The position numbers and the translations under genes are program-made. Positions 1,159 to 21,330 of a stretch of 64,000 nt of DNA are shown one piece after another. How positions within the stretch are numbered: the stretch's first letter is position 1; every line of letters starts with the position of its first letter. The stretch lies in IMG/VR virus record IMGVR_UViG_3300047311_000253, positions 2,373 through 66,372 of that record, one strand, 5' to 3'. The notes beneath the pieces are model-generated. The model was not told the origin of the DNA, searched no databases, and saw only the letters and a list, made by a program, of their open reading frames with translations. This stretch comes from a virus.

Positions 1159-2054
1159 GCGGCAGGCACCGCGCTGGCAAAATCCAACTCCTGCCCCGCG
1201 CCTGAATTCCGTTGGTCCTTCATCGCCGCGATCGTCCGGTCAAGGCCGATCTCCAGCGGCGTGAATTCTGGAACGCCAAATTCGTGCGCATATCGGGTCA
1301 AAGCGACAGAGACCTCATCTGGTGCCCCAGATAATGGCAACTGCGTACAAAGCTCCACCTGTGCATTAAGCCGTCGTGCAATCATGTGCGCCAGCTCCAA
1401 GATCGTCACCCTGGATACGCCACCCACATTGTAGACCGCCTGCTTGCCCTCCATGAGAATGTTGAGCAGCATCGTCACTGCATCCTCGACATAGCAATAG
1501 GTGCGGATGGCCGATCCCTGATCGCGAAGCTGGATCACGCCCGTCGTCATCGCCTGGCGAATGAAGTCGAACATGACCCGCTTATCGTCCCATCGCGCCG
1601 GGCCATAGACCAGCGACACGCGGGCGATCTTGGCATCGACACCCTTCGCACGCAGCGCATGGACGATTGCCTCCCCGCAGCGCTTCGCCTCGATGTAGCA
1701 GGCGCGGGGATGGTCGGGTCGCGTGGTGCCGATGTCAAGTTCGGTGTGCGGGATGCGCTTGCTGCCGCTGTAGATTTCGGAGGAGGAAAGAAAGATTGCC
1801 TTCCCGCCGCGCTTCAGATTGCCGATTGCGCGATTGAGGCCGGTCGTTGCGACTTCAACCGTTGCGACAGGCTGTGCCATAAACCGCTCCGGTTGCCCAT
1901 ACCCGGCTGCGTGGACAACATAATCCACCATTGGATAATTCTGCTTGGGAACGCCACGCTTCGGTTCGAATGTTGCGATTTCATGTTTAAGCAGACGCCT
2001 CACCAGCGCCGACCCGATCAGTCCTGTTGCCCCTGTAACGATCGCTGTCCTCAT
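1155..2054 (-). CDS. NAD-dependent epimerase/dehydratase (UDP-glucuronate decarboxylase-like SDR)
   Basis: TGATGLIG Rossmann motif, SSSEIY, CYIEAKR (YxxxK), RTYCYVED. Confidence 0.88.
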   Translation of the reverse strand: MRTAIVTGATGLIGSALVRRLLKHEIATFEPKRGVPKQNYPMVDYVVHAAGYGQPERFMAQPVATVEVATTGLNRAIGNLKRGGKAIFLSSSEIYSGSKRIPHTELDIGTTRPDHPRACYIEAKRCGEAIVHALRAKGVDAKIARVSLVYGPARWDDKRVMFDFIRQAMTTGVIQLRDQGSAIRTYCYVEDAVTMLLNILMEGKQAVYNVGGVSRVTILELAHMIARRLNAQVELCTQLPLSGAPDEVSVALTRYAHEFGVPEFTPLEIGLDRTIAAMKDQRNSGAGQELDFASAVPAA

Positions 2055-2359
2055 GGTTTTCGCAGCCTCATGCTTTTGCGTTCAATTAGCGTCCATCCAT
2101 AGCGCTGGGATACAGCCTTGACCCACTGACGAGCCGCCTTGAAATTAACCGGGCTCACATTCTCGTAATAACTCAGATTTATAGATAGCCCTCCGTCATC
2201 CATAACGTACACCGCTGTGCCCCACTTCCGGCGCCTAAGTTCATACCCAACAAATGGTCTGGACAGATCAAGGCCAAAGACATCCGCCACCACCTGCAGC
2301 GATGCAGGTGTAACGAACCGATCACGACGGCGAACTTTTTCAAGATGATGGACTGTCAC
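2051..2359 (-). CDS. Hypothetical protein (inserted moron)
   Basis: Stop overlaps the next ATG; ends RLRKP like the upstream gene's RLRK. Confidence 0.5.
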   Translation of the reverse strand: MTVHHLEKVRRRDRFVTPASLQVVADVFGLDLSRPFVGYELRRRKWGTAVYVMDDGGLSINLSYYENVSPVNFKAARQWVKAVSQRYGWTLIERKSMRLRKP

Positions 2360-2840
2360 TCGTTAATTTCCGCAGCCTCACATACCCAAGATCATTCCAC
2401 GTCACACTCGTACAGATCGCGGCATTGACTTCCTCGACATCCTGCGGCGCAAATACCATCATTCCCGGCACTTCCGCCATCAACTTCAAGTCTTCCGGGC
2501 ACCGATGCGTCGGCCCCAGCGTCGGATAGTCATTATCTGCGCCCACCGTGACGAACAGGCCCGGCAGCTCTTGCGCCCCGAAATCGATGTAAATTTGCTC
2601 ATACGCCCGCCGCACCAGGAACGGCGCGATCGAATGAACAATCGGATAGAACCCTTCCTTGGCCAACCCTGCCGCCATCCCCACCATGGTCTGTTCGGCG
2701 GTGCCGAGATTGTAGCAGCGATCTGGATGTCTCTTGAACGAGTCGCGGAAGGCATGAACACCTATATCCCCAAGCAAGAGGACAATGCGATCATCATCCG
2801 CCAGAAGCTTTTGGACCGAGATGGTAAATTGCTTGCGCAT
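2340..2840 (-). CDS. Transketolase-like subunit, pyrimidine-binding domain
   Basis: LLGDIG, NLGTAEQTMVGMAAGLA, RAYEQI, GPTH, YVRL; no C-terminal domain. Confidence 0.88.
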   Translation of the reverse strand: MRKQFTISVQKLLADDDRIVLLLGDIGVHAFRDSFKRHPDRCYNLGTAEQTMVGMAAGLAKEGFYPIVHSIAPFLVRRAYEQIYIDFGAQELPGLFVTVGADNDYPTLGPTHRCPEDLKLMAEVPGMMVFAPQDVEEVNAAICTSVTWNDLGYVRLRKLTSDSPSS

Positions 2841-3417
2841 CGTTTTCTACCTTCACCGCATAAAATGTCTCGCCGAGACGGCGCACACCAGGAAATCGTT
2901 CCGTCACTGCCACCCTCGCGCTTTCGAGATACGGATAATCATCAAACACCATTGCGCCGCCTGCTACCATGCGCGGCCATAAACGATCGATGCAAGCACA
3001 ATATGTCTCATACTGATCGCAATCCACATGAACAAAGGCGATATTTTGAAGATCATCAGGCAGAGTCGAGGGAAACATTCCAACATGGAATTGCGCCCGC
3101 GGGATCGACGCTTTCACCCGCTCAAGCGAGACATCCGCAAAATCCCCGATGCGGTGCCTGTCGATATCGCACGCCAGGGGGATGCCTGTGAAACTGTCGA
3201 ACAGATGCAGTTCGCGGCTCTGATGCTCCGCAATCTGCCAAAGCACGAAAGCCGAGCCACCGCGAAACACACCGACTTCGACGAAGCATCCGGCTGGCGT
3301 CATTGCCGCAACCGCTGCCATCGACGCCAACCGGTGCGGCAGGATAACGGATGGCGGTGGCGCGATCTCAGCCAAGGTATAGGTGACGGTTTTGCGGTAA
3401 TCGGAGAGGTCACGCAT
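2794..3417 (-). CDS. TylF/MycF/NovP-family sugar O-methyltransferase
   Basis: VEVGVFRGGS, FDSFTG, AFVHVDCDQYE, GG..VFDDY motifs. Confidence 0.85.
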   Translation of the reverse strand: MRDLSDYRKTVTYTLAEIAPPPSVILPHRLASMAAVAAMTPAGCFVEVGVFRGGSAFVLWQIAEHQSRELHLFDSFTGIPLACDIDRHRIGDFADVSLERVKASIPRAQFHVGMFPSTLPDDLQNIAFVHVDCDQYETYCACIDRLWPRMVAGGAMVFDDYPYLESARVAVTERFPGVRRLGETFYAVKVENDAQAIYHLGPKASGG

Positions 3418-4183
3418 CGACCATCTCCCCCAGCAATTCCGGCATTTCCGCCGCAGTCGGTGCCCGATGGTGCCACGCCCGCGGATCGCGCTCCATCACG
3501 GGAACGCCGCGGCCCTTGATGGTTTGCGCAACGATGCAGTTCGGCGATGTCCACCGCTGCGCCCGCGCAGCTTGCTCGATATCATGGTGATTATGCCCGC
3601 AGATGTCATCTACATGCCACTCGAATGCTTCGAACTTGCGCCCGAGCCCGCCCATGTTAACGATGTCATCCCCGGAGTGATTGTGGTCGATGATGACCGT
3701 CAAATTGTTCAATCGATGTTGCGCGGCAAGCGCTGCCGACTCCCACGTCGTTCCTTCAAGCGCTTCCTGATCTCCGATCAGGCAGAACACCCGCGCATTG
3801 GATTTCCGTATCTTGAGCCCCAGCGCCATCCCCACCGCCATCGGCAGGCCATGCCCCAGCGATCCCGTGGTCGCCTCCACCCCCGGCACTTTCAGGCAGT
3901 CCGGATGCCCGTCCAATTCAAAACCAGGCACACAAAACCGATCGAGCCACGCCTTGGAAAAGAAGCCCTTCTCGGCAAGCACGGCATAGAGCGCGAGGCA
4001 GCCGTGGCCCTTGCTGAGGATAAACCGATCGCGGATCGGATTATTCGGCGCCCGCGGCGTATATGTCAGCACCCGGTCATACAGCACCCAGACAATATCC
4101 AGGATACTCAGAGCCGAGGGGATGTGCCCCTCGCCGGCATGATGGGCGGTCTCGATGATAGTGCGGCGCAGGGCTTCGATCAT
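3410..4183 (-). CDS. Transketolase-like subunit, TPP-binding N-terminal domain
   Basis: GHIPSALS, DRFILSKGH, TGSLGHGL, GD.E..EG..WE, TIKGRG, WHH. Confidence 0.9.
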   Translation of the reverse strand: MIEALRRTIIETAHHAGEGHIPSALSILDIVWVLYDRVLTYTPRAPNNPIRDRFILSKGHGCLALYAVLAEKGFFSKAWLDRFCVPGFELDGHPDCLKVPGVEATTGSLGHGLPMAVGMALGLKIRKSNARVFCLIGDQEALEGTTWESAALAAQHRLNNLTVIIDHNHSGDDIVNMGGLGRKFEAFEWHVDDICGHNHHDIEQAARAQRWTSPNCIVAQTIKGRGVPVMERDPRAWHHRAPTAAEMPELLGEMVDA

Positions 4184-6055: not shown

Positions 6056-8260
6056 TTAGGTGTGAGCTGCGGCATAGGTCGACATGACCACGCAGCCATA
6101 ATCGGAACCGTTGAAGCGGGTTTTCTTCAACCCCCAGATGCTGAGGGCGGATACTTCCAACCTCCGCTTGTGGTCAAAGAGTTCCTCATTCCAGAGATAC
6201 TTTCCGCCCGCATGCTTCATGCCATAGCCGACACAAGCCGCTTGCGCGCCGAGCAACACCGCCCGGCGAACCGTCGTGATTGCCGCGGCCGTGGACGAAT
6301 TAACGCCCGTGGTCACGTCATAGGACGACTTGAGGATGACGGAGTTGTATTCGCCTATCGCTCCATCGTAGAGCGGCGAGTTTTTACTGCCGTCGCCGGT
6401 CATCGCGGCCTTGGTGATATCGAGCCACTGGCCGGTGCTGGTGTTAGTTCTCAGGTCCGTGACCTGATATGGGTGTAAATAGGCGCCTTGGGTTCATTAT
6501 AGTTCGCTAAACTATAACCGTTTCCTTCCCATAAAAGGAAACCGCTTACATTTACATGTAAGAGCAGACTATATCACCACCCCAATTCTCGGGGGCCTCG
6601 CGCTTCGCGTCGCTTGACGCTACGAGCTTTCGCTCTAGTCGTTGAACCTTCTGTGATTGATGCGGACAGATACCACCATTAGCATGCTTGGCCCAATTAC
6701 AATTCCGACATAGAATTTGGAAATTGCTTGGGTACCCATTATCGACCAGCCATTTATAAAGACGGGTTGTACCAATTACCTTTCGGTGTTTATTCCCATC
6801 GTTATTGACGTGGTCAATGGTCAGGAAGATACGTTCTCTCTCACCACAACATGCACATTGTCGCCCATAATGATCGAATACCATATCTCTTGATTTTTGA
6901 TTGTAAGCCACGCTCCACCTATTGTGCTTGTCTTTTACTCCCTGAGGCCATTTGGAATACGGCCTTGCCATATAGCGATCGTGACTGTTTTTTAGATAGC
7001 ATTCGATGCATTCGAACCGAGGCCCTATTTTTCCGCTTCGTTTCTTATAAACGTAAAAACAGTCCTCTGACTTGCTTTGTCCGCATTTCTTACACTGCCT
7101 CATACGCCCTCCTTTGGTTAAGAGCGCAGTGTATCACAGCTTGGCTGCTGATTGTCCTGCGTGATTCACTTTGTCGCAGGATGTTCCAGCAATTCACGAG
7201 GTTATTCGATGCACATTACTGCGCAAAGACGCCTAATTGACGTACCGGCCTTGTTGAACCGCCCGGTAGTAATCGCCGATGTCCGACTTACCCATGGCAT
7301 TGATCGGGCGCACGAGCGGAGTGGCGGTGATCGCCATTTCCTTCGCTTTGTCGATCATGCCGAGGGTGAACGTATTGGACGAAGTAAGCGACTCGTCGGC
7401 GCTTAGAGAGCCCTGCCACAGGATGCGGCTGGAGGATGGCGCAGTCGGCGCCTGGAGGCCGGTATACTTGGTGCGGGCCTCGTTGTTGTTGCCGCAGACC
7501 TGATTAAAAAAACTTACAGAAAGACGCTTCGCGTACCAGTCTGCAAGGCCGTCTCGTGCTTCGGCCCGCAGGTCGAAGGGAACACGCTGCTGGTCGATGG
7601 TGCGGTCGGACTTGACGCCGGCCACACCCATCAACTCGTTGATGGTAAGTTGCCAGATGTTCACGACGGATCGCTGGGCCGTCGCCGTTCTTTCGAACTG
7701 CCCCACCTCGCGGCAGGGAGCGGACTATATCATCACCTCTTGCGAGGGCGGGGGGCTTCGGCCCGCTTGGGCCTACTTCCTTTCGGAATAGTCTCTACAC
7801 CTTCCGCGACACAACGCAGGGAATCCCATAGATCGGTATATTTGATCGTTTCGACCAACAATGCTTCCGACCACAGTCTCTTGCGGGATAACTGCTTTAC
7901 TCGCGGCTTGGCTCGGTATTGTCTCTTTACAGAGAGATTCACCGAATTCACCCCGTTTGCTATGGCGGCTTACGCTGCCAAAGGGACCAATAGTCGATCC
8001 GTATAGATCGTCAGACTCTCGCCGTTACCTTCGGCGAGTTCGTTTTCGGTGAACCCGTCTTGGGTCATTTGGAGACGCAGGCCGAACGTGACCTGGTCGC
8101 CTTTACCCTTTTCGAGTTCCTCTTTCTTGTGAATGATGCTGCCTGCGTCGGTGCCAATCAAAGGCGCGATTTCGGTGTACTTAAGCGCTTCGACCGAGAG
8201 TTCCTTTGACCACAACTTCACAGCATATGCGTCATTCAAAGCGAAGGATGTAGTCGCCAT
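6056..8260 (-). CDS. Major capsid protein, N4-gp56 family; join(8260-7997, 7652-7240, 6485-6056), 368 aa
   Basis: Exons join in frame (264+413+430=1107 nt): ESLTIYTD|QLTINEL and QGRYV|AYLHPYQVTDLR; motifs VKLWS, GDQVTF.L, R..LLGAQA. Confidence 0.9.
6486..7239 (-). mobile_element. Group I intron 2 (754 nt) with homing endonuclease ORF
   Basis: Exon ends in U, intron ends in G; P1 ACGU/GCGU; UAGGCG can pair with 3' exon CGCCUA; P GAAUUGCUGGAA (7184-7195), Q AAUCAGCAG, R GUUCAACGACUA (6636-6647), S GAUAUAGUCUG (6565-6575). Confidence 0.9.
6552..7103 (-). CDS. Intron-encoded HNH homing endonuclease
   Basis: N-terminal CxxC..CxxC; CACCG...LTIDH.NN...ILCRNCN; AAGGAGG RBS; located in the P6 loop, 3' end overlaps the intron core. 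Confidence 0.85.
   Translation of the reverse strand: MRQCKKCGQSKSEDCFYVYKKRSGKIGPRFECIECYLKNSHDRYMARPYSKWPQGVKDKHNRWSVAYNQKSRDMVFDHYGRQCACCGERERIFLTIDHVNNDGNKHRKVIGTTRLYKWLVDNGYPSNFQILCRNCNWAKHANGGICPHQSQKVQRLERKLVASSDAKREAPENWGGDIVCSYM
7653..7996 (-). ncRNA. Group I intron 1 (344 nt, no endonuclease)
   Basis: Exon GGAU pairs with IGS GUCC (U.G wobble); UUG can pair with 3' exon CAA; P GAAUUCGGUGAA (7938-7949), Q AAUACCGAG, R GUAGAGACUA (7789-7798), S GAUAUAGUCC (7722-7731); terminal G. Confidence 0.9.
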
Positions 8261-8472: not shown

Positions 8473-9612
8473 TTACCGGCCCGGCGCCCCGATCAGGCTG
8501 GTGAATTCCTTACGCTGTGCCGCCGTGAGGCTCGATCGCCATGCCGCATATTCGTTGTCGTCCATGTCGGCGAGCTTGGCGAGGTCGATGCCGGCCGGAG
8601 CCGGAGCGCCGCCGGCAGAGGACAGCGAGCGGCTGGCGGCTTGGCCGCGCTGGATGGCCTCGACCTGCTGGGTGACGGTGGGCGGTGCGGCAGCGGGAGC
8701 CGGGGAAGACGCTGCCGCACCGTTTCCAGTGTGGCCAGCACTCCCAGACGGCAAAGGTGCCGCCGGCGCCGGTGCCTGGAATCCGCGAGCCCTCGCCAGC
8801 CCATAGATGATCTGGGCGGGCCCGGCCGCGTTTGGATTGGTCTGTCGTGCCATCAGGGCGCGGGCAACGATATCGCGCTCATCAAGCGTAATGATGCGCA
8901 TGCGCTCGGCGGGATCGGTGTAGCCGGCGGCGGAAAGCTCTGCGTCACGGTTTGCCATCAGCCAATTGTAGGCTTGGCCGAAGTCGGCCTGCCTTGTGGC
9001 GAATTCGCGGGCATCCCGGACATAGGTGGTCTGCAACTCGGTGGCGGCGTCGCGTTCCTGGACGTTGGTGGCAACTTGATCGGTTTTGCCAGCAAGGCCA
9101 TTCACCTGTTCGCCGAGCCATCGCATGTAGCCGAAGGGATCGGCTTCGGGATCGGGCGGGGCGGCGGGCTGCTGGGCCGGGGGCTCGACTGCCTGCTGAA
9201 AGACCTTCAGCCTTTCATCGAGGCGCGCCCATTTCTCGCGCTCGGCTGCGGTTGATGCACGCTCGGCGGCGATCGATGTCTCCCGCGCCTGCAGCTCGCG
9301 TTGGAGTTCCTGGCGGCGGGTCTTCTCGCGCTTCCATTGGGGATAGAAGGGAGAGTCCTTGGCGGGCTCGTCATCCTCCTCAACGGGCTCCGCAGGCGTT
9401 GCCGATGCAGCCTCGGCTGGGGCCGGCTTCGCGGGTTCTGCCGCTTGGGCAGGCTTCTCCGGCTCGGCAGGGGCAGGCTTTGCAGCATCGTCACCGGCGG
9501 CCGGAGGAGTCAATCCATCGCTATTTTTCCCGCCACTTTGCAGGTAATCGATCTCGCCTTGGGTCAATCCCTCATCGAGTAAGGCGCGGGTCTTGGCGTC
9601 GGCTTCTGGCAT
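8473..9612 (-). CDS. Putative scaffolding protein
   Basis: Acidic Ala/Pro-rich coiled-coil protein just upstream of the capsid gene; start MPEADAK follows a GAGGA RBS. Confidence 0.7.
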   Translation of the reverse strand: MPEADAKTRALLDEGLTQGEIDYLQSGGKNSDGLTPPAAGDDAAKPAPAEPEKPAQAAEPAKPAPAEAASATPAEPVEEDDEPAKDSPFYPQWKREKTRRQELQRELQARETSIAAERASTAAEREKWARLDERLKVFQQAVEPPAQQPAAPPDPEADPFGYMRWLGEQVNGLAGKTDQVATNVQERDAATELQTTYVRDAREFATRQADFGQAYNWLMANRDAELSAAGYTDPAERMRIITLDERDIVARALMARQTNPNAAGPAQIIYGLARARGFQAPAPAAPLPSGSAGHTGNGAAASSPAPAAAPPTVTQQVEAIQRGQAASRSLSSAGGAPAPAGIDLAKLADMDDNEYAAWRSSLTAAQRKEFTSLIGAPGR

Positions 9613-9622
9613 AAGTGTCCTC

Positions 9623-10819
9623 TTAGATGAAAGCTTCTTGCGGTGCGAACAACGGCGCGTCCTCCCCCGACACATGCGCGATCCTGCGCTTGATGTCGGC
9701 GACGTATTCCGCCTCGCGCTCGATCAGGATGGCATCGAAGCCATCGCGCATGCAGGCCATGCCTGTGCTGCCGCTGCCGGCAAAGGGGTCGAGCACAATG
9801 CCACCGGGAGGACAGACCAACCGGCACAGATAGGCCATGAGGTCGACCGGCTTGACGGTGGGGTGTTTGGAACTCAGGCGGTCGCCTTTGTCGGCCTTGG
9901 CTGTGTAGAAGAAGCGAGCGGCGGAACCGGAATCATTGCCATAGTCGCGCGTTGTCTCATATCCAGCCTTGGCGTCTTGGCCATAGATCGCGCGCTGGCC
10001 GATTGGCCTTGTTCCAGCTTTCATTAGCCCGCTTGTCGACTCAGGAAACGCCCCCACCACTTCCTCGCTGCCGTCGTGGATCAAATTAGCAGGCCATCTC
10101 CCGATCTCAGAACCACTTTGAAAATCATTACCGTTTCCGGTGCGCCATTGTTCTGGATTTCCGGTCCCGCCATGGTTATTGCGAACCGTGCTTTCTGCCC
10201 CCTTCACCCTGCAAGCGCCTATGTTGAGAGCACCAGCACCGTGCGCCAGCACATTGGCTGCCACAGTTCCAATGAGGGGCTTGCGTGCGAGGATGATGGG
10301 CTCATGGGCGGGCTTTAGGGCGGTGCCCCAGCCCTGCCATTTGCGGGCGGCGTCGGTGGCGGGGGCGGTGACTAAAACCCCGCCGTTTTCCGTCTCCATC
10401 CCGTTCCAGCCGCCGTGAGATTGTTCCTTATGCTCCTGTACCTGTTGTCTCGTTCTACTTTCCCCGACCACTTCCCGTTCCGCCCCCGCGGCCTTGTCGA
10501 TCGCCTTGCTCACGTCAAGCGACTTCGGAAATCCGCTGCCGTAAAGCCACATGATCTGGTCGCGTATCTCAAATCCAGCGTCCTCGATCGCGCATGCCAA
10601 GCGGTGATAGGTGCGGGAGCCGCCGAACGCGAGCAAGTGGCCACCGGGCTTGAGGACACGGAAGACGGCTTTCCAGAATGGAATTCCTGGAACGCCATGG
10701 TCCCAGTTCTTGCCCATGAACGATAGGCCATAGGGCGGGTCCGTCACGCAGGCATCGACCGAGGCTTCCCCGAGCGTCGGCAACACATCCAGACAATCTC
10801 CGGTAAGTACACGAATCAT
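9623..10819 (-). CDS. DNA N6-adenine/N4-cytosine methyltransferase (beta class)
   Basis: VTDPPY, HPTVKP, DPFAGSGST. Confidence 0.9.
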   Translation of the reverse strand: MIRVLTGDCLDVLPTLGEASVDACVTDPPYGLSFMGKNWDHGVPGIPFWKAVFRVLKPGGHLLAFGGSRTYHRLACAIEDAGFEIRDQIMWLYGSGFPKSLDVSKAIDKAAGAEREVVGESRTRQQVQEHKEQSHGGWNGMETENGGVLVTAPATDAARKWQGWGTALKPAHEPIILARKPLIGTVAANVLAHGAGALNIGACRVKGAESTVRNNHGGTGNPEQWRTGNGNDFQSGSEIGRWPANLIHDGSEEVVGAFPESTSGLMKAGTRPIGQRAIYGQDAKAGYETTRDYGNDSGSAARFFYTAKADKGDRLSSKHPTVKPVDLMAYLCRLVCPPGGIVLDPFAGSGSTGMACMRDGFDAILIEREAEYVADIKRRIAHVSGEDAPLFAPQEAFI

Positions 10820-11121
10820 GATGCCGGCGCTGTCTGTTTCGGCGGCGGTAACACATCCTTATGATGGGTTTCAGCCGCCCACGCCTCAATGATATCGCGG
10901 CCTCGTGGAACATGATAGTCGTTCATTATCACTCCCATCGTGCCGGGGAATGCATCCTTATGGTGGATTTTAGCCGCCCACGCCTCAATGATATCGCGGC
11001 TCTGCGTTTCCCTGATATCCACTCCGAGCCCCGCCCAATACCGGACGCAATCCAAATTCCTTGGGTCTCGTGGAACATGATAACCGTTCATTATCACTCC
11101 TATCGTGCCGCGGAAGGTCAT
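10816..11121 (-). CDS. Mosaic small ORF built from internal duplications and a copy of the portal C-terminus
   Basis: GT.GVIMN.YHVPR x2, RDIIEAWAA..HHKD x2, ends PKQTAPAS; ATGA-coupled at both ends. Confidence 0.5.
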   Translation of the reverse strand: MTFRGTIGVIMNGYHVPRDPRNLDCVRYWAGLGVDIRETQSRDIIEAWAAKIHHKDAFPGTMGVIMNDYHVPRGRDIIEAWAAETHHKDVLPPPKQTAPAS

Positions 11122-13424
11122 GCTGGCGCCGTCTGTTTCGGCTGCGGCGGGAACGCATCCTTGTGATGCGGTATCGGTGTCAACGCATCGATCAGCGCCC
11201 CGACACGGGCCGCGTGCGCGCTGGCATGGTCTGCGGCTTGGCCTGCCTGCTCGCTGCCGACCTTGGCCCGGACATGATCCGCGGTTGCCCGTTCGGTCGC
11301 GACCTTGGCATAAGTGTGGGCGGTCTCGGCATTGGTCTTGCCTACATCGGCCTGGGTCTTCATGGCCTCGAAGCCTGACTTGCGGGCTTCGTTCATGGCG
11401 GCGGCTAAATCTCCTTGGTGTTTAAGTAACAAATTTTTTGCCATCGCCAAGTCATACATTGCCGTGGCTTCGGTACTCGATGCCTGCTTGTTGAACAACT
11501 CGGCCTGCGCCTGGTCCTTACTGGCCTTCGCCACCGCACCGGCTAGCGCCGCCTGCTTCATCTGTTCGACCATCGGGTCGGCCTGCTGCGGCGAGTTGAG
11601 CATTTGCCGGATCGATTCCAGCATTGCCTGCGGCAGCGGCGAGAATTCCAATACCTTCAGTAAGATTTGCGGCTGCGCCATCAACTGGTCTTTGAAAGCC
11701 GGCAGCAGGTTCGAAATGATAGCCCAGTTCGCTTGCTTCTGGTTCGGACTTGTCGGCGTGTCGTCAACGATCACGTCGTATTCGCCAAGCGTGCGGTCGC
11801 GAAGAAGCTGAATCGACTTCTGCCCATCCTGGCCGGTGATGCGGATGATACGGCCGTCACTCAGGAAGTTTTGAATGTAATAGAGACGGATTCGCCCGAC
11901 GATCTTGCGCATGCGGCGCAGCGCATCGAACATGGTGGCGAGCACCGTCATCCCGGCCTGCTTGCGCATGGCCTCCAGGATGCCGGGCTGGTTCACATCT
12001 TTTTGGCCGATCAGTTCCAGATTGATGCCGGACACATCGCGGGTGGCGTTGATGGCCATGTCAAGCAATTGCAGATAGCCCTCGACGTTGCCGCCAGTCG
12101 GTTTGGCGACAAACTTGGGACCGTTCTGCCCCGATAGCGCGCCGCGGGCCGCCCATACGATGCCATCGGGACGCGCCCAGTTCTGCTCGGCTTGGCGCTG
12201 GTCCTCAAACATGCCGGTTTCGGCAACGATGCCGCCCTTGGCCGTCGAGTTGAGGATGTGTAGCGTTTGGCTCAACCACTTGTTGCCCCACATCTGGGGG
12301 TCGCGCAAGGTGCGGACGATGCCAAACCATGTCTTCTTGGTGTGGTGTAGCTGGCCAGTGATGACGGTGCGCGAAAACCGGGCGGGGTCTTTGGCGGGGC
12401 CTATTTCCAGGATTTCCTGGCCCAGGAAAGCTTGCTTGAACACCTTGCGCTTGGTTTTAGCGGCCGTGAGTTGCTGCGGGCGATAGCCGGGGATGGCCTG
12501 TGCCTTGATGGCCTCGACCTCGGCGTGACGGGATTTCAGCTTGGTATAGGTCGGCCCATCAAGCTTGTGCATCTTGTTGTTGGTGGGATCGGCGACACAC
12601 CAGCAATCTTCGCGCTCCCACCATTCGAGATGAACGAGGGTGACCTCATCCTGATCGGCTAGCGGGCCGGACGAGTTCTCGTCGCGGACGCGGCGTTCCT
12701 CCAGGGTCTTCTGGGGCGTGCCGGGATCGTTGGCGTACGCCCATTTGGCGTCGAGCTGGTCGCGGTTGAAGTCGGGAAAGAGTTGCTGCGCATCGCCGAG
12801 CGGCATGGTGCGGACGCGCCAATCGCGGCGGCGATCCACCATGTTCTTTTTCTTTGCTGTGCGGTCCCAGTAGAATTCGAGCGGATCGATCGCCTCCTCG
12901 ATGTATTTGCCCTCGGCTTCTTCCTCATAGTCCATGCGGTGCTCGAGCACACCCAGGCCGCAGATCAGTGTGTGTTCGAAGGCTTCACTTTCCTCATCCT
13001 CGCCGTCGCATTCGTCCGCCATCCATTTGGAGGCGCCGGTCAAGGTTTCGTCGATCGCAGAATCTTCCAGCTTGCGGGGCAGAAATGCAATCTCATGGCG
13101 GCCGTTGATCTCCATGCCGGCCACGGCCTTGATGATGGTCAGGCTGCGGTTGAAGACGATGGGGCTGCGGTTCTGGTCCTTGAGAAGGGCTTGGTCCTTT
13201 TCGCTCCACTGGTCACCAGCGATGAAGTCGAAGTCCGTTTTGGCCTGGACGCGCCAATCCTTGGAGTGCCGTTCGTCACCCTTGAACCAAGCCTTGAAGA
13301 CGCGCATGGCCTCCGACTTTTCCAACTCGGACGGACGCATGTCGTTGCCCGGCGCGGCAGACTGATCTGCCTGCGGGCCGTCTTGGGAGGATTTGGTGGC
13401 GACTTGCTCGTCAACGTCGGCCAT
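11118..13424 (-). CDS. Portal protein (P22-like)
   Basis: 768 aa; DF..GDQW, PIVFN, LRDPQ...NK..S, YDV.VD..P.SP; upstream of scaffold and capsid. Confidence 0.85.
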   Translation of the reverse strand: MADVDEQVATKSSQDGPQADQSAAPGNDMRPSELEKSEAMRVFKAWFKGDERHSKDWRVQAKTDFDFIAGDQWSEKDQALLKDQNRSPIVFNRSLTIIKAVAGMEINGRHEIAFLPRKLEDSAIDETLTGASKWMADECDGEDEESEAFEHTLICGLGVLEHRMDYEEEAEGKYIEEAIDPLEFYWDRTAKKKNMVDRRRDWRVRTMPLGDAQQLFPDFNRDQLDAKWAYANDPGTPQKTLEERRVRDENSSGPLADQDEVTLVHLEWWEREDCWCVADPTNNKMHKLDGPTYTKLKSRHAEVEAIKAQAIPGYRPQQLTAAKTKRKVFKQAFLGQEILEIGPAKDPARFSRTVITGQLHHTKKTWFGIVRTLRDPQMWGNKWLSQTLHILNSTAKGGIVAETGMFEDQRQAEQNWARPDGIVWAARGALSGQNGPKFVAKPTGGNVEGYLQLLDMAINATRDVSGINLELIGQKDVNQPGILEAMRKQAGMTVLATMFDALRRMRKIVGRIRLYYIQNFLSDGRIIRITGQDGQKSIQLLRDRTLGEYDVIVDDTPTSPNQKQANWAIISNLLPAFKDQLMAQPQILLKVLEFSPLPQAMLESIRQMLNSPQQADPMVEQMKQAALAGAVAKASKDQAQAELFNKQASSTEATAMYDLAMAKNLLLKHQGDLAAAMNEARKSGFEAMKTQADVGKTNAETAHTYAKVATERATADHVRAKVGSEQAGQAADHASAHAARVGALIDALTPIPHHKDAFPPQPKQTAPA

Positions 13425-19092: not shown

Positions 19093-19433
19093 GTGCCTGC
19101 GGCATCCATGATGGAGATTTGCCAACCCTGGTTCCAGGGAATGCGGCTGGTCTGGGCCAGGATCGGACTGTTCGCCGAGGCCGTCACCGAACGGATAGGG
19201 GAGTTGATCTCGTAGCGGACGGCATCCCCGGTCGGAATCTCGATGAGCACGACGGTTGCCGTGTCAGGGTTGTTGACTGCCGACAGCACCGGAGATGCAG
19301 ATACCGTGAGGTTCTGCGCCCACTGGTAGGGCTGGGTCAGCATCAGGGCGTTGTCCAGGTTGACCTGATGCGGGTCAACGATGGTTGTTTGCACCATCCC
19401 CTTGTGGCCGAACAGACGGACGGAAAAGCTCAT
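19089..19433 (-). CDS. Hypothetical beta-rich protein
   Basis: In operon, coupled to the downstream gene. Confidence 0.6.
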   Translation of the reverse strand: MSFSVRLFGHKGMVQTTIVDPHQVNLDNALMLTQPYQWAQNLTVSASPVLSAVNNPDTATVVLIEIPTGDAVRYEINSPIRSVTASANSPILAQTSRIPWNQGWQISIMDAAGT

Positions 19434-19443
19434 AGATTACCCT

Positions 19444-21330
19444 TTATCTTCTGCCGCGGCGGCGAGCGCGGATCAGCCATTCGGATACGCCTGTAACCGG
19501 CGGCGGGCCCGGGGTGTAAATGGTAAAGCTCGGATACGGAGCCCCACCCCATCCCGGCGCGGCGATGTCATAGGAGAGCGCCGCCCCGAACGTCTGGAAC
19601 GGCAGATGGAACGGGTTGCCGGCGAGCTTAGCGATGTAGAGGCCGTATCCCTCGGTCGGCTTGCCCTGCCATCCCGGCGCGGCGATGTCGTATGACAGCG
19701 CTGCATTGAATGTCTGAAACGGCAGAAAGAATGGGTTGCGCGTCGGCGTGAGCAGCCGGGCGTTGCGCTCGATCGTCGCCTGCCAAAAAGTCTCCGCGGC
19801 ATCGAAGTCGTAGCGCCACAGCCGGTGCGCTGGATTTCCGGCGGCGCCGAGGATTTGCAGAATAGCGCTCGGATCGGGAGCCCCGACCCAGAACGCATCT
19901 TCCGAATAGTAGGCTTGCCGGCCGACGAATGGCTTGGCGAGAAACAGCGGCGTATTGCGCGGAACCGGCACGCCCTGCCATTGCGGCGGATCATCGAGGC
20001 CGAACCGCCACACGCGGGTCGGCGGCCGACCGGCGGCAACGAGGATTTGAATGATGCCGCTGGGATCAGGCGATCCAACCCAAAACGCATCTTCCGAATA
20101 GAACGGCGGCTGGCGGATGCCAAAGGGTTGCGCGGTGGGCGCCAGCAGCGGGGCGTTGCGCTCAATGAGCACCTGCCACTGAGTTTCGCCGGTGTCTAAA
20201 TCATACCTCCATACCTTTTGGATTGGCTGACCGGCAGTGGCCAATATCTGAATGATTGCGCTCGGATCGGGCGCCGCGTTCCAAAGAGATTCAGCAACAT
20301 TATGATCGTAGCGCCATAGCCTCGCAAATGGCAGCCGACCCAGGATTTGAATGATCCCGCTTGGGTCAGGTGCAGCGTTCCATTGGCTCTCGCCAGTATC
20401 GAAGTCGTCTCTCCACAGCTTCGCGAACGGCACACGCCCGAGGATTTGCATGATGCCGCTGGGATCGGGAGCACCGCTCCACAGCGTTTCGTCGGTTCGG
20501 TCAAATTTCCATAAATCAGGCGAAAATGGTGTCGGCGCAGCATTGAGCAAAGCGACATCGCGGACGAATGCTTGCAGCCATGGCTGCTCCACCGGAGGCC
20601 GGGGTGCCCATAGGGGCGCCATGATGACGCCGGTGATGCTCGCGGGCGGGGCGGCAGGATAAAGCGTGTCAATCGGCCCGACAGGCGTGCCCTGCCAGGC
20701 CGCATCCTCCGAATACAGGTCTGGGAACTGCGGAACGCGAGGGTTGACGGTGACGCTATAGAGATTGTCAATCGGCCCGACAGGCGTGCCCTGCCAGGCC
20801 GCGTCCTCCGAATACAGGTCTGGGAACTGCGGAACGCGAGGGTTGACGGTGACGCTATAGAGATTGTCAATCGGCCCGACAGGCGTGCCCTGCCAGGGGG
20901 GTGGGTCGTTCTGCGTGTAATGCAGCCGCCATAGGAACGGCGTGAACAACGGAAACGTGATCCTGGAGAGCTGCTGAATGACGCCCGAATTTAGCAACTC
21001 TGCCGGCATCTGCCACGGCGGCGGATCGTTCTCCGTGTAGTAAGGCAGCCACCGCTTGGTCGGGACTTGGCCGCCAACGCCATAAATCTTCTGCTTGGTG
21101 AGAAACGCGATGATCGGCGAGTCGGTGGGCGCCGCGTTCCACTGGGATTCCGCAACGTTGTAGGTGTAGTAAGGCAGCCACCGCTTGGTCGGGACTTGTC
21201 CGCCGACGCCATAAATCTTCTGCTTGGTGAGAAACGCGATGATCGGCGAGTCGGTGGGCGCCGCATTCCACGAGTCATCCGCAGACTGCCGAGGAACCCA
21301 GAAGGGAGGCCGAAGGACGACAGCCATCAA
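19444..21330 (-). CDS. Trp/Pro-rich repeat protein
   Basis: Roughly 15 degenerate 30-45 aa units (W.g.P.p..i...l), C-terminal RARRRGRR. Confidence 0.7.
   Translation of the reverse strand: MMAVVLRPPFWVPRQSADDSWNAAPTDSPIIAFLTKQKIYGVGGQVPTKRWLPYYTYNVAESQWNAAPTDSPIIAFLTKQKIYGVGGQVPTKRWLPYYTENDPPPWQMPAELLNSGVIQQLSRITFPLFTPFLWRLHYTQNDPPPWQGTPVGPIDNLYSVTVNPRVPQFPDLYSEDAAWQGTPVGPIDNLYSVTVNPRVPQFPDLYSEDAAWQGTPVGPIDTLYPAAPPASITGVIMAPLWAPRPPVEQPWLQAFVRDVALLNAAPTPFSPDLWKFDRTDETLWSGAPDPSGIMQILGRVPFAKLWRDDFDTGESQWNAAPDPSGIIQILGRLPFARLWRYDHNVAESLWNAAPDPSAIIQILATAGQPIQKVWRYDLDTGETQWQVLIERNAPLLAPTAQPFGIRQPPFYSEDAFWVGSPDPSGIIQILVAAGRPPTRVWRFGLDDPPQWQGVPVPRNTPLFLAKPFVGRQAYYSEDAFWVGAPDPSAILQILGAAGNPAHRLWRYDFDAAETFWQATIERNARLLTPTRNPFFLPFQTFNAALSYDIAAPGWQGKPTEGYGLYIAKLAGNPFHLPFQTFGAALSYDIAAPGWGGAPYPSFTIYTPGPPPVTGVSEWLIRARRRGRR
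20667..20897. repeat. Near-perfect 99-bp tandem repeat (2.3 copies)
   Basis: tgtcaatcggcccgacaggcgtgccctgccagg at 20667, 20766 and 20865. Confidence 0.9.
21035..21271. repeat. 108-bp direct repeat with 129-bp period
   Basis: 21035-21142 vs 21164-21271, encoding WNAAPTDSPIIAFLTKQKIYGVGGQVPTKRWLPYYT. Confidence 0.9.

What the first reader, a model, noticed from the sequence alone, without database searches (positions are those of the whole stretch)
6056..8260. Major capsid gene interrupted by two group I introns
Seen: three capsid fragments rejoin exactly in frame when 7996-7653 and 7239-6486 are removed. Both inserts follow a U, end in G, form P1 with a U.G pair, offer P10 pairing and contain P, Q, R and S elements. 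Known: phage group I introns are mostly described in nucleotide-metabolism, polymerase, terminase and lysin genes. Inference: synthesis of the most abundant virion protein depends on two self-splicing events, which could act as a timing or metabolic checkpoint. Standard annotation would give three broken ORFs.
Basis: partly seen in the sequence, partly recalled or inferred. Interest (0 to 1): 0.85.

Follow-up and report, generated by a model that had tools for sequence, protein, structure and literature searches.

The report
Phage capsid gene with two introns

Summary
On the minus strand, three fragments (8260-7997, 7652-7240, 6485-6056) join into a 1107-nt, 368-aa frame without a stop. It aligns without gaps to uninterrupted 368-aa N4-gp56/Phage_capsid_3 capsid proteins, which read straight across both junctions. 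Both inserts are subgroup-IA-type group I introns. Rfam RF00028 matches both end to end, below its gathering score (40.8 and 29.1 bits against 50). Their 3' cores share P7, P7.1, P7.2, P8 and P9 with nine other phage introns, with 98.4% of cells paired and 16 of 24 pairs compensatory. One of those nine is the LUZ24 polymerase intron, which splices in vivo. A related phage carries an orthologous 250-nt intron at exactly the intron-1 site, and it scores above the Rfam cut-off (61.8 bits). Intron 2 holds a 183-aa HNH endonuclease ORF. Splicing itself is not shown, because no RNA run was listed. The "checkpoint" idea has no support. Capsid-gene group I introns are in print for mycobacteriophage LittleE, Tuc2009 and crAss-like phages, and this scan has noted many on other DNA. 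Verdict: a new member of a known kind, of modest interest.

The parts
7997..8260 (-). Capsid exon 1 (264 nt, codons 1-88, ATG at 8260)
   Evidence: Pfam PF13252 positions 2-88, E 2e-20. Ends ...ACGGAU.
7653..7996 (-). Intron 1: 344-nt group I intron without an ORF, subgroup-IA type, with a P6 extension of about 94-100 nt
   Evidence: RF00028 40.8 bits, E 2e-8, model positions 1-253. An orthologous 250-nt intron with the same guide sits at the same site in L098 and scores 61.8 bits on Rfam. The internal 72-aa ORF 7733-7951 has no Pfam family.
7678..7807 (-). Intron 1 3' core (P7, P7.1, P7.2, P3', P8, P7', P9)
   Evidence: Alignment A1 and pair counts. 69% identical to the LUZ24 DNA polymerase intron core.
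7240..7652 (-). Capsid exon 2 (413 nt)
   Evidence: PF13252 positions 86-215, E 2.4e-20.
6486..7239 (-). Intron 2: 754-nt group I intron with an HNH ORF in the P6 loop
   Evidence: RF00028 29.1 bits, E 6.7e-5 at 6545-6832, plus a 13-bit piece at 7124-7191 covering P3-P6. Helices read.
6552..7103 (-). Intron-encoded HNH endonuclease ORF (183 aa). AGGAGG lies 4 nt before the ATG. The last ~103 nt overlap the ribozyme 3' core.
   Evidence: phrog_2255 'HNH endonuclease' E 2.8e-16 and phrog_1035 E 6.3e-12. 45% identity (E 5e-32) to the HNH ORF inside the capsid intron of MW202512.1. Pfam HNH is only E 0.15.
6522..6654 (-). Intron 2 3' core (P7, P7.1, P7.2, P3', P8, P7', P9)
   Evidence: Alignment A1 and pair counts.
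6056..6485 (-). Capsid exon 3 (430 nt including the TAA stop)
   Evidence: PF13252 positions 253-375, E 9e-27. TIGR04387 capsid_maj_N4 E 5e-12, below its cut-off.

Best explanation
The single N4-gp56/Phage_capsid_3-type major capsid gene of this uncultured soil or rhizosphere phage is interrupted by two independently acquired subgroup-IA-type group I introns. The late pre-mRNA must lose both to give the 368-aa capsid protein. The inferred mechanism is the standard group I pathway. The guide sequence pairs with the end of the upstream exon (P1, with a U.G pair at the cut). Exogenous guanosine bound in P7 attacks after U7997 and after U7240. The freed exon then attacks after the terminal G (7653 and 6486) and the exons are ligated. 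Intron 2 also encodes an HNH homing endonuclease in its P6 loop. This enzyme presumably cuts intron-less capsid alleles in co-infecting relatives and so spreads the intron. The ORF runs about 103 nt into the ribozyme core, so translating it and folding the ribozyme should compete with each other. Shown here: the exon structure, collinearity with intron-less homologues, conserved and covarying ribozyme helices, an orthologous intron at the same site in a relative, and the HNH family assignment. Inferred only: that splicing occurs and is efficient, and that the endonuclease is active.
For: The three exons join in frame with no stop. The product aligns with 0 gaps to 368-aa homologues at 80-84% identity. 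In the 80 IMG/VR relatives, junction 1 is read through uninterrupted in 78 (the other two contigs do not reach it) and junction 2 in 80. In the 80 metagenome relatives, no locus is interrupted at junction 2 and only L098 at junction 1; some of those contigs do not reach the sites. RF00028 gives full-length matches on the correct strand inside both inserts, at E 2e-8 and 6.7e-5. The 3'-core alignment of 11 introns has 98.4% of 257 cells paired and 16 of 24 pairs with changes on both sides. None of 500 shuffles reached this, and the slid controls gave 28-45% paired. The LUZ24 member of that alignment lies inside the 669-bp intron shown to splice in vivo. L098 has a 250-nt intron at the identical site, with the same guide UUGGUCC and compensatory changes in P2, P5, P7.1, P8, P9 and P9.1; it scores 61.8 bits on Rfam, above the cut-off of 50. 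P3 pairs in both introns: CGGGGUG/CCCCCCG in intron 1 (6 of 7) and CCUCGUG/CGCGAGG in intron 2 (7 of 7) (read). The ORF is an HNH endonuclease by PHROG. DNA contigs from other runs carry the same intron-bearing gene with 0 differences across all four boundaries: X2 6889-8118, X3 6139-6637 and 7106-7256, X4 7379-7659. There is no second capsid gene in the record.
Against: There is no RNA evidence, because no RNA holder was listed. Both Rfam scores fall below the gathering score of 50, and nothing in the window reached it. Both P1 helices have only 4 base pairs, and intron 2 lacks a canonical adjacent P10. No relative with an intron at the intron-2 site was found among 160 loci, so that junction rests on protein collinearity and the U...G rule alone. 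The paired structure I tested was derived from these same sequences, which favours it over the slid controls. The Pfam HNH match is not significant (E 0.15).
Confidence: 0.9

Rival explanations
1. The introns are real but serve the phage as a regulatory checkpoint for capsid synthesis, tying it to timing, GTP level or translation, and are not merely tolerated selfish elements.
For: Capsid output must depend on two splicing events, since this is the only capsid gene. The literature reports that phage group I splicing varies with conditions: the LUZ24 preprint's passages cite Sandegren and Sjoberg 2007 for this. I saw that paper only as a citation and as a title in a reference list.
Against: The nearest relatives make the same protein without either intron. 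The two introns are unrelated in detail (56% in the core) and each resembles introns in polymerase genes of other phages. Intron 2 carries a homing endonuclease, the hallmark of a selfish element. Among the 160 related loci, introns occur sporadically at many different positions of this capsid family, and MW202512.1 adds one more position.
Confidence: 0.07
2. One or both inserts no longer splice, being decayed introns or an HNH cassette insertion. The gene is then a pseudogene in a defective phage, or the capsid is supplied in trans.
For: Rfam scores are below the cut-off, both P1 helices are short, and there is no RNA evidence.
Against: The exons keep an intact frame with 80-84% identity to functional-length homologues. 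All core helices are intact, with compensatory changes only. The same allele occurs with 0 differences in contigs of at least three further runs, as expected for a propagating phage. The low Rfam scores are explained by the ~94-nt P6 extension and the 552-nt ORF, because the shorter orthologue L098 passes.
Confidence: 0.05
3. The interruptions are assembly chimeras.
For: The record is a metagenome assembly.
Against: Independent contigs from other runs bridge every exon-intron boundary identically. A related contig has the orthologous intron at the same site.
Confidence: 0.01

Closest known systems
Mycobacteriophage LittleE major capsid gene intron (Pope et al. 2013, PMC3706429; passages read)
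   Same: A self-splicing-type intron with U at the exon end and G at the intron end interrupts the major capsid gene of a tailed phage and carries a homing endonuclease gene. Close relatives lack it.
   Different: LittleE has one intron, a LAGLIDADG-like ORF on the opposite strand, and splicing shown by RT-PCR and N-terminal sequencing. Here there are two introns, an HNH ORF on the same strand, a different capsid family, and no RNA evidence.
MCP genes of crAss-like Delta and Zeta group phages (Yutin et al. 2021, PMC7886860; passages read)
   Same: Metagenome-assembled phages whose MCP gene is split by one or several group I introns that encode endonucleases. One MCP is in five fragments.
   Different: These are gut Bacteroidetes phages with a different capsid family. 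The introns were recognised mainly through their protein domains. Their supplementary figures were not seen.
Pseudomonas phage LUZ24 DNA polymerase group I intron (bioRxiv 10.1101/2023.10.13.562163, passages read; Ceyssens 2008 seen only as a citation)
   Same: The 3' ribozyme core is isostructural with and 69% identical to that of intron 1. It contains an endonuclease ORF and is shown to splice in vivo.
   Different: The host gene is a DNA polymerase, not a capsid gene.
Capsid-gene introns in relatives found here: MW202512.1 (L001), L073, L019, L098, L095/L096, L109, L123, L128
   Same: The same capsid family and the same IA-type core, found by Rfam and/or by my model R1. L098 has the orthologue of intron 1. 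The MW202512.1 intron carries an HNH protein 45% identical to that of intron 2.
   Different: Except for L098, these introns sit at other positions of the gene: about codons 8, 14, 31, 134, 268, 328 and 335. None sits at the intron-2 site.
T4 td, nrdB and nrdD introns and Staphylococcus phage Twort orf142 (three introns in one gene) - recalled, or seen only as citations
   Same: Phage group I introns, some with endonuclease ORFs in peripheral loops, and several introns in one gene.
   Different: Different host genes. No direct comparison was made here.

Membership tests
Group I catalytic intron (Rfam RF00028) | Covariance-model match at or above Rfam's gathering score (50 bits) | tested here: inconclusive
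   Intron 1 scores 40.8 bits (E 2e-8) and intron 2 scores 29.1 bits (E 6.7e-5). Both are full-length matches on the correct strand but below 50. The 250-nt orthologue of intron 1 in L098, which lacks the P6 extension, scores 61.8. This cut-off is operational and is not a defining property.
Group I catalytic intron | The 5' exon ends in U paired with G in P1, formed with an internal guide sequence | tested here: met
   Intron 1 pairs GGAU with GUCC; intron 2 pairs ACGU with GCGU. Each helix is only 4 bp. L098 has the same guide at the same site.
Group I catalytic intron | [quoted passage not shown] | tested here: met
   G7653 and G6486.
Group I catalytic intron | Conserved core helices P3-P9, including P7 formed by the R and S elements | tested here: met
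   P7 (GACUA with UAGUC) is invariant in 11 of 11 introns. P7.1, P7.2, P8 and P9 are 88-100% paired with 16 compensatory pairs. P3, P4, P5 and P6 were read from the cmscan alignment and the sequence. The 5' half was checked by inspection only, not by a count.
Group I catalytic intron | Excision restores a frame collinear with intron-less homologues | tested here: met
Group I catalytic intron | Guanosine-dependent self-splicing | not testable with these tools
   No RNA run holds the stretch. An in vitro assay is needed.
Subgroup IA (criterion recalled from Michel and Westhof 1990) | Extra helices P7.1 and P7.2 between P7 and P3' | tested here: met
   Intron 1 has UUCC-GAAA-GGAA and GGCCC-AAGC-GGGCC. 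Intron 2 has GAGC-GAAA-GCUC and GCGUC-AAGC-GACGC. Both helices covary across the 11 introns. The finer class (IA1, IA2 or IA3) was not determined.
HNH homing endonuclease | HNH nuclease family membership and a location inside an intron loop | tested here: met
   phrog_2255 E 2.8e-16. The ORF starts in the P6 loop with its own AGGAGG. Pfam HNH is below its threshold (12.7 against 21.4 bits). Site-specific cleavage is not testable here.
N4-gp56 / Phage_capsid_3 major capsid protein (PF13252) | Profile match above the curated cut-off over the full length | tested here: met
   The three fragments score 73.5, 73.3 and 94.4 bits against a cut-off of 23 and together cover profile positions 2-375. 1751 longer homologues have E <= 1e-10, and many are named 'N4-gp56 family major capsid protein'.

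The most novel reading that the evidence does not exclude
This capsid gene family is a hot-spot in which one structural lineage of small IA-type introns repeatedly changes its insertion site. Among about 160 related loci plus one GenBank phage, I found such introns at some nine different codon positions (about 8, 14, 31, 88, 134, 226, 268, 328 and 335). Where I checked, each has a guide sequence matched to its own site. Related HNH genes (45% identity) sit at two different sites. This would point to frequent ectopic transposition within one gene, by reverse splicing or by endonuclease retargeting, and not to simple homing.
Probability: 0.35. Interest if true: 0.5.

Novelty: new member of a known kind. 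Interest (0 to 1): 0.3.

Why it matters
This has practical consequences for annotation. Gene callers break such capsid genes, and two cases here point that way. MW202512.1 lists exon 1 as a 'hypothetical protein' and gives an N-truncated capsid. The database proteins P0004 and P0010 begin just after junction 1, although I could not fetch their contigs to confirm an intron there. Broken genes of this kind distort capsid-based phage classification and marker-gene surveys. Biologically, it adds a soil-phage capsid family to the list of structural genes that tolerate group I introns. It also provides a compact set of related introns at many sites of one gene, useful for studying how guide sequences and homing endonucleases are retargeted. 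It opens no new question by itself.

Tried and rejected
The alternative 5' splice site for intron 1 suggested by cmscan's own P1 (a CGAUC/GAUCG hairpin, cutting after U8005) is rejected. It would delete the Y-T-D residues that intron-less homologues keep (TIYTDQLTINEL in P0002 and P0007).

An intein is rejected, because both inserts carry in-frame stops and shift the frame.

The idea that intron 2 arose by duplication of intron 1 is rejected. The two are 56% alike in the 3' core, and each is closer to other introns.

The 12-residue 'extra' stretch just before junction 2 (SDIGDYYRAVQQGR), seen against distant homologues, made me suspect a misplaced splice site. Close homologues contain the same stretch uninterrupted, so the site stands.

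No RNA holder was listed for the stretch, so expression and splicing could not be examined. Laying DNA contigs of four runs gave no intron-less joint. The only joint reported (7807 to 7902, skipping 94 nt) comes from contigs with many differences. I take those contigs to be a related intron lacking the P6 extension, not an allele of this phage.

The Rfam search at gathering threshold over the whole window found nothing. The Selles Vidal 2025 intron database paper does not mention capsid or phage in its main text. The L. plantarum phage, Shewanella KASIA, Jug phage, Vibrio N4-like, Citrobacter, cyanophage and Pectobacterium papers mention no capsid-gene intron in the passages returned. The MFE fold of intron 1 is only modestly better than shuffles (z -2.14), which adds little.

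Supplementary files of the papers were not opened. Yutin's Supplementary Fig. 12 and the LUZ24 preprint's Supplementary Fig. S7 may hold relevant detail. I ran no structure prediction or complex prediction.
Full report
WHAT IS THERE.
The window is most of a 66,372-base IMG/VR virus record, estimated 91% complete. The region 6056-8260 lies on the minus strand in a head module. Upstream are a portal gene (11118-13424, phrog_156, E 6e-92), a DNA methyltransferase (9623-10819) and a 400-aa Ala/Pro-rich ORF in the scaffold position (8473-9675, no PHROG match). Three ORF fragments each match Pfam PF13252 (Phage_capsid_3) well above its cut-off, at successive profile positions 2-88, 86-215 and 253-375. 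They are the only matches to that family in the record.

Joining 8260-7997, 7652-7240 and 6485-6056 gives 1107 nt. This encodes 368 aa with only the terminal stop.

- A search with exon 3 for longer proteins returned 1751 homologues at E <= 1e-10. Most of the 120 listed are 355-372 aa, and many are named 'N4-gp56 family major capsid protein'.
- I read 12 of them and aligned 9 full-length ones to the spliced product. P0002, P0003 and P0012 are 368 aa and align with 0 gaps at 82%, 84% and 80% identity.
- The junction peptides are conserved in these uninterrupted proteins: TIYTDQLTINEL is identical in P0002 and P0007, and P0001 has QQGKYVAYLHPYQ.
- In 80 IMG/VR loci found with exon 3, junction 1 is crossed by an unbroken tblastn alignment in 78 (the other two contigs end before it) and junction 2 in all 80.
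- In 80 metagenome loci found with exon 2, only L098 is broken at junction 1 and none is broken at junction 2. Several of those contigs are partial.

The inserts are therefore precise additions to an otherwise ordinary capsid gene.

THE INSERTS ARE GROUP I INTRONS.
At Rfam's gathering threshold nothing in the window matches. With E-value reporting, RF00028 matches both inserts end to end (model positions 1-253) on the coding strand. The scores are 40.8 bits (E 2e-8) at 7701-8014 and 29.1 bits (E 6.7e-5) at 6545-6832. A third piece at 7124-7191 covers P3-P6 of intron 2.

Both inserts follow a U and end in G. Reading the sequence, the helices are:

Intron 1:
- P1: GGAU with GUCC, including the U.G pair.
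- P10: UUG with CAA, adjacent to P1.
- P2: a hairpin with a GUAA loop.
- P3: CGGGGUG with CCCCCCG (6 of 7 paired).
- P4: UCGGUG with UACCGA.
- P5: UCUCU-GUAA-AGAGA.
- P6: carries an extension of about 100 nt.
- P7: GACUA with UAGUC.
- P7.1: UUCC-GAAA-GGAA.
- P7.2: GGCCC-AAGC-GGGCC.
- P8: CCUC-GCAA-GAGG.
- P9: 7 bp with a GCGA loop.

Intron 2 has the same plan:
- P1: ACGU with GCGU.
- P3: CCUCGUG with CGCGAGG.
- P4: UGCUGG with UCAGCA.
- P7.1: GAGC-GAAA-GCUC.
- P7.2: GCGUC-AAGC-GACGC.
- P9: CUUACAU-GUAA-AUGUAAG.

P7.1 and P7.2 mark subgroup IA (criterion recalled from Michel and Westhof 1990). For intron 2 the only strong P10 candidate overlaps the P1 strand, so a canonical P10 is not evident.

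COMPARATIVE SUPPORT.
A blastn search of phage genomes matched the 3' core of intron 1 at 76-82% identity. The matches fell in split DNA- or RNA-polymerase genes of Pseudomonas, Acinetobacter, Klebsiella, Pectobacterium and Ralstonia phages. It also matched intron 2 to a GenBank podovirus, MW202512.1 (29 records in all; annotation).

I aligned the contiguous 3' domains of 11 introns: the two here, two in L073, MW202512.1 and six polymerase introns. I then counted pairs for P7, P7.1, P7.2, three pairs of P8, and P9.
- 98.4% of 257 cells pair.
- 16 of 24 pairs show changes on both sides.
- 0 of 500 shuffles reached this.
- Sliding the partners by 1 to 3 columns gave 28-45% paired.

The caveat is that I derived the structure from these same sequences, which favours it over the slid versions.

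The LUZ24 member of the alignment lies at record positions 19661-19787. That is inside the 669-bp intron (19,143-19,811) which long-read cDNA data show to be spliced in vivo (passages read).

A covariance model of this domain (R1) found, besides its own training sequences, new copies inside every other interrupted capsid gene:
- L019, 105.7 bits.
- L098, 102.8 bits.
- L123, 123.2 and 50.7 bits.
- L128, 121.5 bits.
- L095 and L096, 90 bits.
- L109, 88.3 bits.

It found no further copy in the 64-kb window.

THE STRONGEST SINGLE RESULT.
L098 encodes a capsid protein 75-84% identical to this one, and its gene is interrupted at exactly the intron-1 site (...ACGGAU|CGAUUGGUCCC...UUAG|CAAUUG). The insert is a 250-nt intron with the same guide, UUGGUCC. 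It shows compensatory differences in P2, P5, P7.1, P8, P9 and P9.1, and it lacks a block of about 94 nt in P6. It scores 61.8 bits on RF00028, above the gathering score. The sub-threshold score of intron 1 is therefore explained by its P6 extension. The low score of intron 2 is explained by the 552-nt ORF.

THE ORF IN INTRON 2.
ORF 7103-6552 (183 aa) starts in the P6 loop, 4 nt after an AGGAGG. It matches PHROG HNH endonuclease families (phrog_2255 E 2.8e-16; phrog_1035 'endonuclease VII' E 6.3e-12). Pfam HNH is not significant (E 0.15). The protein is 45% identical (E 5e-32) to the HNH protein, annotated 'icea protein', that lies inside the capsid intron of MW202512.1. Its last ~103 nt are the ribozyme's P7 to P9 region. 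The only similarity to the nACB1 intron endonuclease is the tail KVQRLER, which that RNA core encodes. Intron 1 has no credible ORF: the 72-aa GTG frame has no family match.

IS IT A REAL, PROPAGATING GENOME?
Eleven DNA runs from soil and rhizosphere metagenomes hold parts of the stretch, and none is on record as RNA. Contigs from three of the four runs I laid (X2, X3, X4) carry the intron-bearing gene with 0 differences across all four boundaries: X2 6889-8118, X3 6139-6637 and 7106-7256, X4 7379-7659. This argues against an assembly chimera and against a dead-end pseudogene. No DNA contig skipped either intron.

ORIGIN.
In the 3' core the two introns are 56% alike. Intron 1 is closest to the LUZ24 intron (69%) and to L073 intron A (68%). 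Intron 2 is closest to the nACB1 intron (67%) and to the MW202512.1 intron (62%). They are therefore separate acquisitions.

Across the relatives, introns of this type sit at about nine positions of the capsid gene:
- about codon 8 (L109);
- about codon 14 (L123, L128);
- codon 31 (MW202512.1);
- codon 88 (this window, L098);
- codon 134 (L073 and its near-identical copies L125, L127 and L129; L019);
- codon 226 (this window only);
- codon 268 (L073);
- about codon 328 (L095, L096);
- about codon 335 (L123).

Positions marked 'about' are taken from alignment ends and were not mapped to the base. Counted by locus, 2 of the 80 IMG/VR loci and 9 of the 80 metagenome loci carry at least one such intron.

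HOW IT MOST LIKELY WORKS.
Inferred from established group I chemistry, the late transcript folds two ribozymes. Guanosine attacks after U7997 and after U7240, and the exons are ligated after G7653 and G6486, giving the 368-aa capsid mRNA. The HNH enzyme of intron 2 would cut intron-less alleles in co-infections and so copy the intron in. Because ribosomes translating the HNH ORF run through P7-P9, translation of that ORF and folding of the ribozyme should be mutually exclusive on any one RNA molecule. None of this was observed directly.

WHAT IS KNOWN.
Pope et al. 2013 (PMC3706429, passages) showed by RT-PCR and N-terminal sequencing that the LittleE capsid gene contains a spliced, probably group I, intron with a homing endonuclease. 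They also cite a capsid-gene intron in lactococcal phage Tuc2009. That look-up also lists 1159 notes holding the words group, intron, major and capsid, in at least 784 genomes; the eight notes it printed describe capsid-gene introns, up to 16 in one gene. My literature searches turned up no description of introns in the N4-gp56/Phage_capsid_3 family specifically, but this is a narrow gap.

VERDICT.
The premise of rarity and the checkpoint inference are not supported. This is a new member of a known kind and of modest interest. The more interesting lead is the spread of one intron type over many sites of a single capsid family.

Noticed in passing
L001 (GenBank MW202512.1) 1607-3304: The capsid gene of this deposited podovirus genome contains an unannotated group I intron (RF00028 47.5 bits) with an HNH ORF annotated 'icea protein'. 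Exon 1 (31 codons) is annotated as a 'hypothetical protein' and the capsid CDS is N-truncated. My reading of the junction is UGGAU|...AAGG|UUACAAG, with a 7-bp P1 (CUUGGAU with GUUCAAG).
   Followed up: partly
L073 3741-4001 (also L125, L127, L129): The second intron of this capsid gene scores 65.6 bits on Rfam, but its boundaries cannot have both a U before the 5' splice site and a terminal G. The in-frame options are U...A or C...G. This is unexplained; it may be a non-canonical omega nucleotide or a sequence error.
   Followed up: partly
L019 about 2960-3757: An insert of about 760-800 nt at about codon 134 of a capsid gene gave no RF00028 match at E <= 0.01, but matched my 3'-core model at 105.7 bits. 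The general Rfam model therefore misses some members of this intron group.
   Followed up: partly
L098 310-325: The tblastn pieces overlap and change frame around codons 15-19 of this capsid gene. This may be a frameshift or sequencing error, or another small interruption.
   Followed up: no
window 6589-6651 and 7718-7807: Other contigs in the same soil and rhizosphere runs match only these ribozyme-core stretches, with 5-15 differences. One form lacks 94 nt (7807 to 7902). Related introns in other genomes are therefore common in these samples.
   Followed up: no
window 6552-6654: The C-terminal ~34 residues of the HNH protein are encoded by the ribozyme's P7-P9 core. The same KVQRLER tail occurs in the otherwise unrelated endonuclease of the Acinetobacter phage nACB1 polymerase intron, so it appears to be a peptide dictated by RNA structure.
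   Followed up: partly
window 8473-10819: A DNA methyltransferase gene (9623-10819, phrog_67 E 1.6e-73) sits between the portal gene and a 400-aa Ala/Pro-rich ORF (8473-9675, no PHROG match) that occupies the scaffold position upstream of the capsid gene.
   Followed up: no
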